DNA of 64,000 nt from an uncultured Methanosarcinales archaeon (GTDB lineage: Archaea; Nanobdellota; Nanobdellia; Woesearchaeales; CAZOXR01), in assembly GCA_964566535.1 (NCBI GenBank), contig CAZMIO010000001.1, forward strand, positions 247,751 to 311,750, read 5' to 3'. Position numbers: made by a program. This document shows positions 12,001 through 18,000 of this stretch, piece after piece. Position 1 is the first letter of the stretch; the number at the start of each line of letters is the position of its first letter.

Positions 12001-15000
12001 GTTTTGAAGTTGAAGACTGTGTATAACAGAGGGTTTTCTTCTGGATTTTACTTGGGGAAGCCTAATGATGAGGATTGGAGTGAGGTTTATGGTTCTTCTG
12101 CTACGACTAAGAAGAAGTATGTTGGGTTTGTTCGAAATTTCTATAAGAAGGTTAAGGTTGCAGAGATTAAGTTGGAGGCTGGTGATGTGAAGGTGGGGGA
12201 TGAGATTATGTTTCAGGGTCCAACAACTGGTGTTGTGGAGGAAGTGGTTAAATCAATGGAGTTGGACCATAAGAAAGTTAGTAATGGTAAGAAAGGTCAA
12301 CATATTGCGGTTAAGGTTAGTGGTGTAGTTAGGGAGAGGGATAAGGTTTATTTGGTTGTTAAGTCATAATATTTATATAGCGTTTTTGCTTCTTCTTTTA
12401 CGATGAATATCGCTGTTATTTTAGGTGGGGGTAAGGGTAGCCGAATGGGTGGTAAAGTGAATAAGATACTGCTCTCTTTAGCTGATAAGCCTTTAATCTA
12501 CCATACTATCAAAAAATTTGAAGATTGTTCGGATGTTGATGAGATAATTCTTGTGATTAATAAGGACGATATTGATGAGACGAAATTGTTGGTTAGTAAA
12601 TATAAATTTAATAAAATAAAGAAGGTAATTGAAGGTGGGGAAGAGAGGCAGGATTCTGTCTGTAACGGAATTAGAGCTATTGAGAACGGGATGGAGGAGG
12701 ATGTTGTGCTGATTCATAATGCTGCTAATCCTTTTGTTTCTGAAGAGAGTATTGTTGAAGTTATTAAAGCTGTTAAGGATCATGGAGCTGCTGTTGCTGC
12801 TCATAAGGCTAAAGATACAATTAAAGAAGTTGACCTTTATGGGTTTGTTGAGAGGACTCTTGAGAGAGATAAGTTATGGCAGATGCAGACCCCACAAGGA
12901 ATGAAGTATGGTGTTGCTTTGAAGGCTTTTGAGAAAGCCTATACTGATGATGTTTATGCAACTGATGATGTTGCACTGGTTGAGAGGATTGGCGGAAGAG
13001 TTAAGGTTATTGAGACTAATAAAGAAAATATTAAGGTTACTAATCCTTCTGATCTAGTTTTTGCTGAGAAAGTTATTGGAGATAGGATAGGGGTTGGGCA
13101 GGACAGCCATCGGTTTGAAGATGGAAAGAAGTTAATGTTGGGTGGAGTTGAGATTCCTTTTGGTAAGGGATTAAAAGGTAATTCTGACGGAGATGTGATA
13201 TTGCATTCTTTGTTTAATGCTTTGAGTCAGGCTATTGGTATGAGGTCTATTGGTTGTTATGCTGATAAGATGTGTTTAGAAGAAGGTATTAAAGATAGTA
13301 AAGAGTATGTTAAGTTTATTTTGGGGAAATTGTCTGAATATAAGATTAATAATGTCGGAATAATGGTTGAGGGGAAGGAGCCTAAACTTGAGGCGCATCA
13401 TGACATGATTAAAGAAGCTGTTGCTGAGCTGATTGGTGTTGAGGTTGGTGGGGTTGGACTTACATTTACTTCAGGCGAAGAGCTTACAGAATTTGGAAAA
13501 GGAATGGGGATGCAAGCATTTAGTGCTGTGCTGTTGTCAAGAAAATGAGTTCAATAAAACTAAAATCATATGCTAAGGTGAATCTTACTCTAGATATTCT
13601 GAGGAAGAGGGGAGATGGATATCATGATCTAGAGACAGTGTTTCAACAGATTGGACTTTGTGATGATGTTGAACTTACGTGGATTGATGGTGACAAGGTT
13701 GAGATTGAATGTAATGTTAAGGAGATTGAGAATACTAGAAATCTAGCTGTAAAGGCTGCTTTGATGTTGAAAGAGAAATGTGGAATAAGAAAAGGAGTTC
13801 ATATTAAGATTAATAAGAGGATTCCAATTGGTGCTGGCCTTTCTGGCGGGAGTTCAAATTCTGCTGCTGTTTTGAAAGGTTTGAATATTTTATGGGATCT
13901 TGGACTTCGTAAAGAGGATTTGATTAAGGTTAGTGAAGATATTGGGATGGATGTTGCTTTTCATATTTTAGGTGGGACTTGTTTTGGTAAGGGTCGTGGT
14001 GAGATACTTGAGAAGATTAAGGATTTGGATGAGTATCATGTTGTTTTGGTTTATCCTGGATTTTCTGTTAATACTTCCGATGCTTATGGTAATCTTGATT
14101 ATGGGGTTATTGGTAAGGAAATGAAATCTCAAAAATTAATTGAATCTTTTGATATTAATCACTTGCATAATGACTTTGAGCATTCTATCATTAAAAAAAA
14201 TCCAATGATTGAAACGGTTAAAAATAAAATTGGTGAGAATGCTCTGATGACTGGTTCTGGTTCTGCTGTTTTTGGTTTGTTTAAGGATGAGAGTGAGGCT
14301 CAAAAGAAGTTTAAGGAATTGAAGGAAGAGTTTAGTGATGTATATTTAACTAAGACTGTTAATAAGAATGTTGAATTAGCTAAAACAATGGGCTTTTGTT
14401 TTGGTGTTAAGAGGGCTGTTGATGAGATTGAGAAGCTTAAGAATGGAGAGGATGTTTTTGTTTTAGGAAAGTTGATTCACAATCCACAGGTTATTGAGCA
14501 GTTAGAGAGAGATGGAATAAAGATGATTGATAGTTTTGAGGGTGTTGATAAAGGAGTAGTTGTAATATCTGCTCATGGAGTTCCTGATAAGACTATTGAA
14601 GGAGTTAAGGAGAGGGGGGTTAAGGTTGTTGACCTTACTTGTCCACTTGTAAAGAAGGTGCATGACATCACGAAGGAAGAAGAGAAGAAGGGAAGGAAGG
14701 TTATCATATTTGGAGATGAGGGGCATACTGAAGTTAAGGGTATTGTTGGGAATCTTAAGAACTATAAAGTTATTAAAGATTTACTTGAGCTGAATGATGA
14801 GGATAAGAAGGGCAAGATTACTTTAGTTTCTCAGACTACTAGAGATGTTAAACAATTTAATGAGATTTCTGCTAAGATTAAAGAGATGAATCAGGATAGT
14901 GAGATTAAGGATACTATCTGTATTGCAACTAAAGATAGGCAGTCTAGTTCTATTGAGTTGGCTAAAAAATCTGAGCTGATGATTGTTGTTGGAGGCAAGA

Positions 15001-18000
15001 TGTCTTCTAACACTAAGAGATTGGCAGAGATATGCTCAAAGTTTTGTGAGACTAAATATATTGAGACAGAGAATGAGCTTGAGATGGATTGGTTTTTAGG
15101 TAAAGAGAAGGTAGGGATTACTGCTGGAGCTTCAACTTCATCTGATACGATTAATCGAGTTAAGGAGACTATTGAGAGGATAATATGAAAGAAGAACTAA
15201 AGAAGTATAAGGGATTAGTGGATGAAGAGCTTGAGAAGCTAGCTGGTTCTGTTAGTGGTAATGAGAGCGGTTTTTTGAAGGATAGTTATGATATGTTATC
15301 AGAGTATATCCTTAGAGGTGGGAAGAGGCTTCGGGCTATATCTTGTATTAAAGCTTATGAAGCGTTTAGCGGCAAGAAGGAGAAAAGGATTCTTTTGCCT
15401 GCAATAAGTCTTGAGTTGTATCATGCTGCATCTCTTGTTCACGATGATATTATGGATGAGGATGAAATTAGAAGGAATAAAGCAAGCATGCACAAATTGT
15501 ATCAGGATATGTTTCTTAAGAAGTTTTCTGAGAAGAAGTATAACGGAAGTGTGTTTAGTAGGGAGTCTGTTAGGTTTGGGGTTTCTTCTGGAATAATTCA
15601 GGGTAACATGATGTTTTCTTTGGTTTTGGATTGTTTAGTTAAGAGTAGTTTTTCAAGTGGGCTTCGGAGTGAGGCTGTTATGTTAATTCAGGACTCTTAT
15701 AGGAAGGTGAATGAGGGGCAATTACTTGATGTGTATAATGAATTTTCTTCTGAGGTTGGGGAGAAGGATTATTTAGAGATGGCTGCTCTAAAGACTGGTA
15801 ATTTATTTGCAACTTCGTTGGAGTTAGGTGGGGTACTAGCTGGGATTGGTGTGAATGAGAGGAAGTTGTTGCATGATTTTGGAGTTAATATTGCAATTGC
15901 TTTTCAGATACAAGATGATTTGATGGATATTGATTCAGATTCTAAAAAAGGTAATACATTTGGTTCTGATATTATGAAAGGGAAGATGACTTTGCTTATG
16001 ATAAATGCGCTTGGGAATTGTTCTGATTTGGAGAGGAAGGAGATTCTTAAGGTGTTTGGGAAAAATACTGCTACTAAATCAGAGATATTGAAGGTCGTTG
16101 ATGTGTTTGAGAAGACTGGTTCAATTGATAGGGCTAAAGAACTTGCTGAGATACATGTTGAGCAGGGCAAGGAGTGTTTGAAAGGTTTGGAGAAGAGGAT
16201 GAGTGCTGAGGGTTATTCGTTTTTTAGTAAGTTAGCTGAGTATATGACTGAGAGGAAGGTTTAGCTTTCTTTGAGAATAATTTTTAACTTATCCCAATCC
16301 ATATCATTATTTATGCAGTTGTAATCATTAAGACGGAGAAGTTGAGGGATGACTTTCTTGTCTTTTAGTTCTAATCCTTTTGAATTTACTTTCTCGTTTT
16401 TCATCTCTTTGTTGATTTCGTAATCGCAAGTTGAGCCAATAACTGCCCTAATCTCTTTTCTTGAGATTAATCTTTTTGTAAAGCCCATACTAGGAGTTAT
16501 GTAGAACTGGTATCCTTCTTTTTGGCATAACTCCTTTATTTCTCCGCATCTGCACAATTTGCAGTTGATGCACAATACTCCCTCTTCTTTAGAGAACTTT
16601 GCAGGACAGTTTTTATGAATAAGGCAGTGAGGGAGAAGGACTGCTCTATCGTTTACCTGGATTTTTTTGAACTCGTCTTTGTAGTAAGTGTTTAGGATTT
16701 TTGAAATATCGTAGTTGATCCCTAGTCTTTTTAGGAGAGGGCTTACTCTAAATAATGCTAGCTTTGTGATAAACTTTAGTTTTCTTAGATTCATGTTAAA
16801 TCGATAGTGTAGAATCAGTTAAAAATGTTATGGTGGGGAAGTCCGAGGTATAATAAATTTTATAAATAAGTTGATATAACTTATTTTGTTTTTAGATGGT
16901 TGTAGGAGTTTTATGGTAAAAATGTCAGAAATTGGAGATAAAGTGACTGGTAGCTATTATGATAAGCTTCAAATATTTTATGATCTGGTTTATTCTAAAA
17001 AAACAGCTGGAATGCATTATGGTTTTTGGGAAGAGGATACAAAAACTACTGAAGAATCTATTCTTAATACCAATAAATTTGTTGTTAAATGTTTGGATAT
17101 CAATGATGATGATATAATTCTTGATGCTGGTTGTGGGGTAGGTGGAACGTGCGTGCATATTGGAAAACGACATAATGCAGAAATTGTAGGCATTACTTTA
17201 TCAAAATTGCAAGTAAAAAAAGCCAGGAAGAAAACAGATAGGCAAGGGTTAAGTAATATCAGTTATTCTCAGCAAGATTATACAAGAACTACATTTCAAG
17301 ATAAATCTTTTACCAAAATATATGGGATTGAAAGTGTTTGTTATACACAAAATAAGTTAGACTTCTTTAATGAGGCTTATAGATTATTGAAGAATAAGGG
17401 GAAGCTGGTTATTTCGGATGGTTATCTTGCAAGAAAAGATCTTAATAGAAAAGAAAGGAAGGTATTGAAGAAATGCTTAATTGGATGGGGCTTGTCTACT
17501 GCACCTACAAAAGAAGATGTGTTTAATGATCTAAGAAAGGCAGGTTTTAAGAATATTAAATATCATGATAAATTTAAGTCAATCAGGAAAACAAGAAATA
17601 GGATTTATAGATTAGGTATAGGAATATATCTTTTTACTTTATTGCTGGACACATTCAGATTAGCACCTAAATGTATTCATGAGAACACTTTAATGTGTCT
17701 TAATCAGAAGCGATTATTTTCTGATAAAAATAATATTGCGACATATGGAGTTTTTGTTGCTGAGAAATAAGGGAAGTATTTTTTTCTAGATTTTATTTAG
17801 TATCTTGCCTATGATCCATACTATTCTTGCCCTTAGTGGAACTTTTCCATCTACAATAAATTGTGATAGTTCTTTATCAGATGGTTTTTTTAATAAATAT
17901 TCCAGTTTATTTGATTTAGTGGCTAGTGACTGAAGGTCAAAAAATATCATACCTGCTTTCATTAATTTGCCAAAACTTTTTTTCCATGTTTTCTCATATG

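What a model noticed while it worked through the whole genome (the two positions that open the first line are those of the whole stretch)
13545..15188. IspE-IspH fusion enzyme in the bacterial-type MEP pathway of this archaeon, shared only with DPANN and Spirochaetota MAG [...]
g00291 (547 aa) fuses CDP-ME kinase IspE (GHMP kinase domains, N-terminal ~270 aa) to HMBPP reductase IspH (LytB domain, residues 276-546), i.e. steps 4 and 7 of the MEP pathway, and sits in an operon ispDF (g00290) - ispEH (g00291) - prenyl diphosphate synthase (g00292), so three genes encode five isoprenoid activities; dxs, ispG (C3:106096-109088) and dxr (C3:112902-114032) complete the pathway. The same full-length fusion is found only in Woesearchaeota/Nanoarchaeota MAGs and, at 45-48% identity, in Spirochaetota-labelled MAGs, pointing to the bacterial lineage with which the archaeal MEP genes were exchanged.
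Evidence so far: pfam.tsv: GHMP_kinases_N, GHMP_kinases_C, LYTB on one ORF; Swiss-Prot best hits (IspH) cover residues 276-546 only. Protein search (5.8 billion sequences, 300-958 aa): 26 clusters cover 93-100% of the fusion with PF00288+PF02401, named Nanoarchaeota/Woesearchaeota or Spirochaetota where named; further hits among the 120 listed are IspH alone or IspH-RpsA/IspH-UbiA fusions covering about 50%.
(Added by a program. Inside this text positions count along the whole contig: contig position 247,751 is position 1 of the stretch shown here. "Call 12" and the like, gene names such as g00115 and contig names such as C1 are that model's own, and its searches are not shown. The text may have been shortened before it was handed on; [...] marks where a part breaks off. 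The agent that wrote the report below was given it as the finding of a first reader that could run no searches.)

Follow-up and report, generated by a model that had tools for sequence, protein, structure and literature searches.

The report
Fused archaeal isoprenoid enzyme reaches spirochaetes
A tiny archaeon makes isoprenoid building blocks with a borrowed bacterial pathway in which two neighbouring enzyme genes have joined into one, and this joined gene was later passed on to a group of spirochaete bacteria, where it sits beside a sterol-type cyclase gene.

Summary
The fusion is real: one intact 547-aa ORF holds a complete IspE (residues 3-273) and IspH (276-545) with every catalytic residue checked, between ispDF and idsA. 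It is this genome's only IspE or IspH. It arose by joining adjacent genes of the known Woesearchaeota MEP operon: relatives mostly keep ispE and ispH separate but abutting, and the operon has also produced IspH-IdsA, HD-IspE and HAD-IspE-IspH fusions. Six of 401 sampled genomes of the order carry it. Steps 4 and 7 are not consecutive, so two independent sites are more likely than a channel. The Spirochaetota copies are extra copies in 7 of 122 genomes of one class, which also keep native genes. They nest inside the archaeal clade for IspE, IspH and Dxr and share an IspE deletion with it. Concatenated AU tests reject the alternatives; IspH alone does not. A bacterial pathway therefore went to archaea and came back. 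In most recipients it lies in a cluster with an oxidosqualene-cyclase-like gene and a U32 Fe-S gene, with no squalene epoxidase found, which is an untested lead. MEP in Woesearchaeota is known; the fusion and back-transfer were not found in the papers searched.

The parts
12372..12379 (+). TATA-box-like element (TTTATATA) about 25-30 nt before the ispDF start codon; likely archaeal-type promoter of a leaderless ispDF-ispEH-idsA transcript
   Evidence: Read directly from the sequence; promoter role is inferred. The sigma-70 scan found fewer sites than shuffles (9 vs mean 20.1).
12403..13548 (+). ispDF: bifunctional MEP cytidylyltransferase / MEcPP synthase, 381 aa (steps 3 and 5)
   Evidence: TIGR00453 215.6 bits (cut-off 181.3) and TIGR00151 141 bits (cut-off 116.45)
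13545..15188 (+). ispEH: IspE-IspH fusion, 547 aa (steps 4 and 7)
   Evidence: AlphaFold2 model pLDDT 90.4, pTM 0.83; Foldseek best hits are IspH and IspE structures
13545..14360 (+). IspE half (CDP-ME kinase): K11, N13, H27, P94-x-G-x-G-L-x-G-G-S103, D136; carries two clade-specific deletions in the C-terminal domain
   Evidence: Each of these residues is present in 25 of 25 aligned fusions; alignment to E. coli IspE; deletions seen
14358..14369 (+). Junction V272-N273-K274-N275: the natural IspE end joined to the IspH first strand by a 2-4 residue link, where relatives have a stop and a start
14367..15188 (+). IspH half (HMBPP reductase): Fe-S cysteines C285, C366, C459; H312, H344, H394, E396, Q430-T431-T432, S487-S488-N489, S530
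   Evidence: Cysteines, H344, H394, E396, QTT, S487 and N489 in 25 of 25; H312 23 of 25; S530 24 of 25; S488 15 of 25; alignment to Aquifex and E. coli IspH
15185..16264 (+). idsA-like trans-prenyl diphosphate synthase, 359 aa
   Evidence: PF00348 190 bits; best NCBIfam match IdsA_Meth is below its cut-off; product length not determined
16261..16794 (-). DUF116 protein, cysteine-rich; recurs beside MEP/prenyl synthase genes in the archaeal operons and in the spirochaete cluster
   Evidence: PF01976; neighbourhoods
17786..18898 (-). Geranylgeranyl reductase family protein
   Evidence: TIGR02032 162.5 bits (cut-off 158.8)
18907..19362 (-). Ribosomal protein S15 of the archaeal type; marks the conserved chromosomal position of the MEP operon in the order
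   Evidence: Sequence (family name from my own knowledge); homologues follow the operon on the opposite strand in many related loci

Best explanation
A bifunctional MEP-pathway enzyme with two independent active sites, made by joining adjacent genes. The N-terminal IspE phosphorylates CDP-ME with ATP (step 4). The product leaves for IspF (on IspDF) and then IspG. HMBPP returns to the C-terminal [4Fe-4S] IspH, which gives IPP and DMAPP (step 7); IdsA and two cis-prenyltransferases then most likely build polyprenyl carriers. Shown: intact domains, conserved residues, sole copy, gene order and phylogeny. Inferred: activity, absence of channelling, product use. History: the fusion arose inside Woesearchaeota by loss of the stop/start between abutting ispE and ispH, moved sideways within the order (including into this genome's lineage), was split again in some lineages, and was transferred with dxr (and probably ispDF/ispG) into one class of Spirochaetota as a second MEP set beside a terpene cyclase.
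For: Both equivalog cut-offs passed and catalytic residues kept; only copy in a genome with all other MEP genes and no HMG-CoA reductase hit. Of 36 fetched loci with both genes, 5 are fused and 24 of the 31 unfused pairs lie within -40 to +60 nt; G135, G377, G215 and G266 are in frame 9-21 nt apart (loci were chosen largely because the genes were close). The same operon has yielded IspH-polyprenyl synthase (G065, G039, G042, G167, G299), HD-IspE (G299) and HAD-IspEH (G041). Careful IspH tree: 20 fused rows 100/97*, inside unfused archaeal IspH 99/84*, spirochaete-type rows 99/94* inside them, native spirochaete IspH 100/100* elsewhere. IspE: 22-row clade 99* with a shared deletion. Dxr agrees. 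Concatenated IspE+IspH+Dxr, 32 rows x 933 columns: spirochaete copies nested at 97/94*, 100/100*, 100/99*, 100/99*. AU rejects archaeal monophyly without them and spirochaete cluster+native monophyly: p 0.0004 and 3e-5, 5e-18 and 1.5e-5 under PMSF, 1.5e-4 and 0.002 for IspE alone. The 8-row group survives Dayhoff-6 recoding. This genome's dxr and ispG are closest to same-family G009 (73%, 72%) but its IspE and IspH halves to G023 of another family (67%, 66%; G009 43%, 53%).
Against: No activity was measured. AU on IspH alone (34 rows) rejected neither alternative (p 0.143, 0.103) and Dxr alone was borderline (0.043, 0.058). Constrained searches were short, the PMSF guide tree was the free tree, and the concatenation mixes genes with different histories inside the order. 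The sister relation to G096 (99/94*) vanished on recoding; its locus is 60% G+C like the spirochaetes. The model's pTM of 0.83 and the very short conserved junction hint at a fixed arrangement of the halves. P0026 has the ancestral, undeleted IspE yet an IspH sister to the other fusions, so one or two origins cannot be told apart. dxs, ispG, ispF, IDI-2 and the prenyl synthase of the spirochaete cluster were not put on trees.
Confidence: 0.8

Rival explanations
1. The fusion is a selected tether in an MEP metabolon: IspE docks on the IspDF oligomer and brings IspH into the same assembly, speeding flux or shielding the oxygen-sensitive Fe-S step.
For: Junction length and T-x-N-[KR] motif are conserved across proteins of 44-87% identity; model pTM 0.83; the fusion was kept after transfer to bacteria; IspDF-IspE association was proposed for C. 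jejuni and A. tumefaciens (PMC5821942, passages).
Against: The same paper reports later work finding no channelling or rate gain for IspDF+IspE and no complex in E. coli or B. subtilis. Only 6 of 104 matching genomes of the order are fused; f23 members have lost the IspH half; four of the spirochaete clusters lack IspD. IspG, needed between the steps, is on another contig here.
Confidence: 0.12
2. Spirochaetota are the source: the fusion, or the MEP genes, came from them into Woesearchaeota.
For: The fusion is shared at 45-48% identity; MEP is a bacterial pathway; the spirochaete copies match their host in G+C (GC3 0.74 vs 0.70-0.81 for neighbours); single-gene AU for IspH does not exclude it.
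Against: Only 7 of 122 genomes of the class have this copy, and the five searched individually also hold native IspE, IspH and Dxr that branch far away. Unfused archaeal genes branch outside the fused clade. G467 keeps an archaeal-like ispDF in front of ispE. Concatenated AU tests reject it.
Confidence: 0.04
3. One half is dead or repurposed, for example the shortened IspE acts on another substrate (prenol or prenyl monophosphate salvage of IspH products), which would explain the pairing and the HAD-IspE-IspH forms.
For: Clade-A IspE has two deletions; a HAD phosphatase is fused in front in 2 of 24 full-length clusters.
Against: Passes the ispE equivalog; CDP-ME and ATP site residues are invariant; there is no other IspE in the genome; unfused f23 IspE carry the same deletions.
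Confidence: 0.03
4. Artefact: a sequencing error joined two genes, or the spirochaete copies are mis-binned archaeal contigs.
For: All sources are metagenome assemblies; one cluster has a split member pair (P0121+P0122).
Against: 24 distinct clusters and further contigs carry the fusion. One spirochaete copy lies on a 4.8-Mb contig that also holds the native ispH and dxr, at 56-59% G+C among bacterial-type neighbours.
Confidence: 0.01

Closest known systems
MEP/DOXP operon of Woesearchaeota subgroup J (Huang et al. 2021, PMC8421398; Castelle et al. 2021, PMC8204110; Castelle and Banfield 2018 as cited there)
   Same: Same pathway, clustered genes, fused ispD/F, absence of GGGP and DGGGP synthases; adjacent locus tags for ispE and ispH in their supplement.
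   Different: ispE and ispH are one gene here. No IspE-IspH fusion in the passages read, nor in any of the 57 LYTB places of the Castelle 2021 data sheet. No transfer back to bacteria in the passages read. The supplementary tree figures of Huang 2021 could not be seen.
Bifunctional IspDF (Campylobacter jejuni, Mesorhizobium loti, Agrobacterium tumefaciens)
   Same: Two non-consecutive MEP steps on one chain with a short linker; no channelling shown (PMC5821942, PMC13001223, passages).
   Different: Different pair (steps 4 and 7, two enzymes in between), includes an Fe-S reductase, and is rare and archaeal in origin.
IspH-RpsA (PRK00087) and other IspH C-terminal fusions
   Same: IspH joined to the product of a neighbouring gene; these dominate the half-length hits.
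   Different: IspH is N-terminal there and the partner is not an MEP enzyme; here IspH is C-terminal to IspE.
Bacterial oxidosqualene cyclase clusters (Santana-Molina et al. 2020, PMC7306690) - for the recipient cluster only
   Same: The spirochaete cyclase scores 738 bits on TIGR03463 and 637 bits on human lanosterol synthase and has a DCTAE motif.
   Different: In most bacteria osc lies near sqmo (passage). Here the adjacent gene is a U32 protein; no PF08491 hit in 5 of 5 genomes and no PF00494 hit in 4 of 5. The score is below the TIGR03463 cut-off of 851.

Membership tests
IspE (CDP-ME kinase) | Passes the ispE equivalog TIGR00154 | tested here: met
   222 bits vs 138.7
IspE (CDP-ME kinase) | GHMP ATP loop and catalytic Lys/Asp, CDP-ME-binding Asn/His (roles recalled from E. 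coli IspE) | tested here: met
   K11, N13, H27, P94-G96-G98-G101-G102-S103, D136 in 25 of 25; aligned to 1oj4/8qcc
IspE (CDP-ME kinase) | Phosphorylates CDP-ME | not testable with these tools
   Needs assay or complementation
IspH/LytB (HMBPP reductase) | Passes the ispH equivalog TIGR00216 | tested here: met
   262.2 bits vs 187.85; NF002187 263.8 is just under its 276 cut-off
IspH/LytB (HMBPP reductase) | Three Fe-S cysteines, catalytic Glu, His triad, QTT and SxN motifs (roles recalled; E126 and T167 mutants appear in PDB titles) | tested here: met
   trefoil fold match TM(target) about 0.8 to 3dnf/3szu
IspH/LytB (HMBPP reductase) | Binds [4Fe-4S] and makes IPP and DMAPP | not testable with these tools
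   Needs anaerobic biochemistry
Woesearchaeota MEP operon | All seven MEP steps encoded, MVA absent | tested here: met
   dxs, dxr, ispDF, ispEH, ispG found; no PF00368 hit in a 91% complete genome; other MVA genes not searched
Woesearchaeota MEP operon | Host is a Woesearchaeota archaeon and the genes fall in the archaeal MEP clade | tested here: met
   Closest named relatives are labelled Nanoarchaeota/Woesearchaeota; trees. The lineage name is inferred from these labels.
Woesearchaeota MEP operon | No archaeal ether-lipid core enzymes downstream | tested here: met
   No PF01040 hit; PcrB hit is HisA-like and the Fe-ADH hit is AroB; no PlsY; genome 91% complete
Channelling bifunctional enzyme / metabolon | Consecutive reactions on the one chain | tested here: not met
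   Steps 4 and 7; IspF and IspG act between them
Channelling bifunctional enzyme / metabolon | Stable interface between halves or with IspDF | not tested
   Only a single-chain model exists; no complex prediction was obtained
2,3-oxidosqualene cyclase (recipient cluster) | OSC-type DCTAE motif and OSC profile score | tested here: inconclusive
   Motif present in the four aligned L081-L084 proteins; TIGR03463 738 and 758.5 vs cut-off 851; TIGR01787 passed
2,3-oxidosqualene cyclase (recipient cluster) | Squalene synthase and squalene epoxidase in the genome | tested here: not met
   PF00494 1 of 5 (in a carotenoid-like locus of G405), PF08491 0 of 5, HpnE over cut-off 0 of 5; alternative epoxidases not searched

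The most novel reading that the evidence does not exclude
The archaeal MEP cassette, marked by the IspE-IspH fusion, was captured by a class of Spirochaetota to supply a mosaic terpenoid cluster in which a U32-family Fe-S protein makes the epoxide (or hydroxylated) substrate for an oxidosqualene-cyclase-like enzyme without O2 and without a recognisable squalene synthase or epoxidase. That would be an oxygen-independent route to sterol-like lipids, fed by a pathway that made a bacteria-archaea-bacteria round trip.
Probability: 0.13. Interest if true: 0.92.

Novelty: new variant of a known kind. Interest (0 to 1): 0.52.

Why it matters
The fusion alone is a modest addition: one more join in an operon that keeps joining neighbours, and a natural two-step MEP enzyme that could be tested in E. 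coli. Its value is as a lineage tag. It shows that a hallmark bacterial pathway, already known to have entered DPANN archaea, kept moving among them and went back to bacteria, so reduced archaea act as donors of core metabolic genes and not only as recipients. It also warns against reading best bacterial hits as donors. The recipient cluster pairs a lanosterol-synthase-like cyclase with a U32 protein and lacks the usual oxygen-using epoxidase. If that pair makes a cyclic triterpenoid without O2, it would bear on the use of steranes as markers of oxygen and eukaryotes; this is a directly testable lead, not a result.

Tried and rejected
Complex prediction of the two halves: never ran, so no verdict on an interface. 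A junction-spanning DNA pattern with fixed spacing gave 26 genome hits: 8 true fusions (3 labelled Nanoarchaeota, 5 Spirochaetota), 17 plain ispH, 1 nothing; and 30 metagenome hits, 11 of them fusions. It misses other spacings and did not return G148, so it does not prove absence elsewhere. The 1.84-billion representative search listed only 2 full-length fusions among its best 150. G135, G377, G215, G266 and G065 looked fused but are separate ORFs with mixed stop codons, so recoding was rejected. PcrB and G1P dehydrogenase hits in the genome were rejected as HisA-like and AroB. U32-cyclase linkage outside spirochaetes: 41 loci of distant homologues (30-45% identity) from another phylum had no cyclase or MEP gene within 1.5 kb; the close homologues (65-70%, labelled Myxococcota/Deltaproteobacteria where named) could not be put in context. 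Sigma-70 scan uninformative. DUF116 paper search returned only unrelated DUF116x hits in the 15 listed. Word searches of earlier findings were empty.

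
Full report
Observation. The ORF at 13545-15188 (+) is intact, 547 aa, and overlaps ispDF upstream and idsA downstream by ATGA. It passes the ispE equivalog (222 bits, cut-off 138.7, residues 3-273) and the ispH equivalog (262 bits, cut-off 187.85, residues 276-545). PDB sequence hits split the same way. An AlphaFold2 model on a 25-row alignment has pLDDT 90.4 and pTM 0.83, and its best fold matches are IspH and IspE structures. In 25 aligned fusions the IspE residues K11, N13, H27, the ATP loop and D136 are invariant, as are IspH C285, C366, C459, H344, H394, E396, QTT, S487 and N489; H312 is kept in 23, S530 in 24, S488 in 15 (residue roles recalled from E. 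coli enzymes). The genome has dxs, ispG and dxr on C3 at the stated places and no second IspE or IspH. Of the 26 top hits, 24 are full length, not 26.

What the pathway feeds. In this 91% complete genome there is no hit for HMG-CoA reductase, UbiA-family DGGGP synthase or PlsY; the PcrB and Fe-ADH hits are HisA-like and AroB; an IDI-2 query found nothing (type 1 not searched). Two cis-prenyltransferases are present. The likely use is IPP/DMAPP to short prenyl diphosphate to polyprenyl carrier lipid; this is inference. A TTTATATA element at 12372-12379 suggests archaeal-style transcription (inferred).

How the fusion arose. In 401 genomes drawn from the order, 104 match (the tally includes five unpublished genomes, G132, G207, G209, G315 and G374, on which no other claim rests). 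Six are fused: G000, G023, G148, G186, G096 and G041, in four families. The recurring layout is dxs-ispG-dxr-ispDF-ispE-ispH-idsA with rpS15 on the other strand. Of 36 fetched loci holding both genes, 5 are fused and 24 of the other 31 have ispE and ispH within -40 to +60 nt, four of them in frame 9-21 nt apart (these loci were picked largely for closeness, so this is not a frequency). Unfused IspE end at the motif that precedes the junction. Other neighbours have fused too: IspH-prenyl synthase in five genomes, HD-IspE in one, HAD-IspE-IspH in G041 and P0025. G317, G218 and G275 have an IspE of the fused clade running straight into idsA, with an unrelated ispH elsewhere, which reads as fission. 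This genome's dxr and ispG are closest to its family-mate G009, whose ispE and ispH are separate, while both halves of the fusion are closest to G023 of another family: the fused gene seems to have replaced the resident pair in place. P0026 has the undeleted IspE type but an IspH sister to the other fusions, so there may be one origin or two.

The spirochaete copies. They are real bacterial loci: one lies on a 4.8-Mb contig. Each of the five genomes searched also has a stand-alone IspE, a longer native IspH and a second dxr (in G402 the native ispE match is in two pieces). Across the class, 122 of 122 genomes match, but only 4 have the whole fusion and 3 more an archaeal-type ispE at a contig end, one of which (G405) runs through the junction. 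Trees place these copies inside the archaeal clade for IspH, IspE and Dxr, with native copies elsewhere. All 22 rows of the IspE clade, 8 of them spirochaete-type, share a deletion before the last kinase loop that none of the other 31 rows shows. The concatenated tree nests them under four starred branches. AU tests reject both 'archaea without them' and 'with native spirochaete genes' on the concatenation (p 0.0004 and 3e-5; also under PMSF) and on IspE alone; Dxr alone is borderline and IspH alone does not reject. Recoding keeps the 8-row group but not the exact sister (the 100/100 label printed one node off after re-rooting is taken to belong to this split). Six of the spirochaete-type fusion clusters have no taxon label and are assigned by tree position only. 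A fixed-spacing pattern scan of 185,579 species genomes found fusions only in these two lineages, within the limits given under Tried and rejected.

The recipient cluster. In G401-G404 the order is U32, cyclase, dxs, prenyl synthase, IDI-2, DUF116, dxr, ispF, ispEH, ispG. The cyclase is oxidosqualene-cyclase-like and occurs in 11 of 122 genomes of the class. A U32 gene with eight nearly invariant cysteines among 41 aligned homologues is directly upstream in all 9 where upstream DNA is assembled; these are kin and count as one event. G494, G495, G504 and G482 have the cluster without ispEH, G467 has ispDF-ispE without it in view. No squalene epoxidase was found in 5 of 5 genomes, squalene synthase in 1 of 5, HpnE over cut-off in 0 of 5. 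U32 proteins UbiU/V, RlhA and TrhP act in O2-independent hydroxylation with prephenate as O donor (PMC10990095, passages). An O2-free route to the cyclase substrate is therefore possible, but the hosts' oxygen relations were not tested, epoxidation by U32 has no precedent that I saw, the substrate is unknown, and distant U32 homologues are not beside cyclases (0 of 41 loci).

Mechanism. Most likely two independent sites on one chain. Steps 4 and 7 are separated by IspF and IspG, and for the best-studied analogue, IspDF, channelling was not found (PMC5821942, passages). The rarity, fissions and variety of neighbour fusions fit near-neutral joining in a tightly packed operon. A fixed interface is not excluded.

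Literature. MEP in Woesearchaeota, the ispD/F fusion and the lack of ether-lipid synthases are published (PMC8421398 and PMC8204110, passages). I saw no IspE-IspH fusion or back-transfer in: passages of those two, PMC13001223, PMC10663253 and PMC11052028; all 57 LYTB places in the Castelle 2021 data sheet; the first supplement hits of Huang 2021 (its tree figures could not be seen and may bear on this); and the listings. For the cyclase lead: listings (0 papers with OSC and U32), and passages of PMC12324236 and PMC7306690. Castelle and Banfield 2018 was not read. I recall a 2021 survey of bacterial steroid genes by Hoshino and Gaucher that may list spirochaete cyclases; I did not see it. The library lacks most subscription papers.

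Verdict. Observation confirmed; interpretation partly supported, with the direction reversed. A new variant of a known system. Interest 0.52, carried by the back-transfer and the cyclase lead more than by the fusion itself.

Noticed in passing
L082:173-3539; also L081, L083, L084, L416, L432-L435: U32-family gene with eight conserved cysteines directly upstream of an oxidosqualene-cyclase-like gene (DCTAE motif) in Spirochaetota lacking detectable squalene epoxidase; closest U32 homologues (65-70%) are labelled Myxococcota/Deltaproteobacteria.
   Followed up: partly
L085:6924-8807: G405 has a second cyclase in the cluster, closest to tetrahymanol synthase/SHC models (TIGR04277 465 bits, cut-off 500), between DUF116 and dxr.
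   Followed up: partly
L200:6235-8133, L203:4828-6708, L204:1373-3196, L206:4653-6542, L202:6156-7808: IspH fused to a trans-prenyl diphosphate synthase in five genomes of the order; these are consecutive steps, so a better channelling candidate than IspE-IspH.
   Followed up: partly
L194:7305-9590 (G041); P0025: HAD phosphatase-IspE-IspH triple fusion; also HD-domain-IspE at L202:4816-6156.
   Followed up: partly
window 16261-16794 (-); L082:7843-8334: DUF116, a cysteine-rich protein of unknown function, travels with prenyl synthase and MEP genes in both the archaeal operons and the spirochaete cluster; possibly an Fe-S partner.
   Followed up: no
L256-L259, L268-L290: Native IspH of this spirochaete class is a 550-600 aa protein with a C-terminal part that had no Pfam hit at 1e-5 in the one tested (L258); related proteins carry UbiA.
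   Followed up: partly
L231-L241 (G317, G218, G275, G351, G381) and L087: Fused-clade IspE without its IspH half; G317, G218, G275 and G351 use a different IspH type on another contig, in three cases next to ispG.
   Followed up: partly
window 11104-12369 (+): A U32-family gene (PF01136, 235 bits) lies just upstream of ispDF in the window; it gave no tblastn hit with the spirochaete U32 at 1e-5 and is probably a different subfamily.
   Followed up: partly
window 16886-17770 (+) and 17786-18898 (-): A SAM methyltransferase (CMAS/UbiE-like) and a geranylgeranyl reductase family gene follow the operon; they may modify prenyl products.
   Followed up: no
L265 (G402:C2:984416-985322): The native ispE of G402 is in two reading frames; assembly error or decay made possible by the acquired copy.
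   Followed up: no
G000:C11:21592-22242 and G000:C1:45450-46073: Two cis-prenyltransferases, one typical (243 bits on uppS) and one divergent (123 bits), possibly a two-subunit enzyme.
   Followed up: partly
L086, L088 with L370, L373, L392, L393: Two archaea of the Iainarchaeum type carry scattered MEP genes that branch apart from the Woesearchaeota set in the concatenated tree, next to a Dehalococcoidia row.
   Followed up: partly
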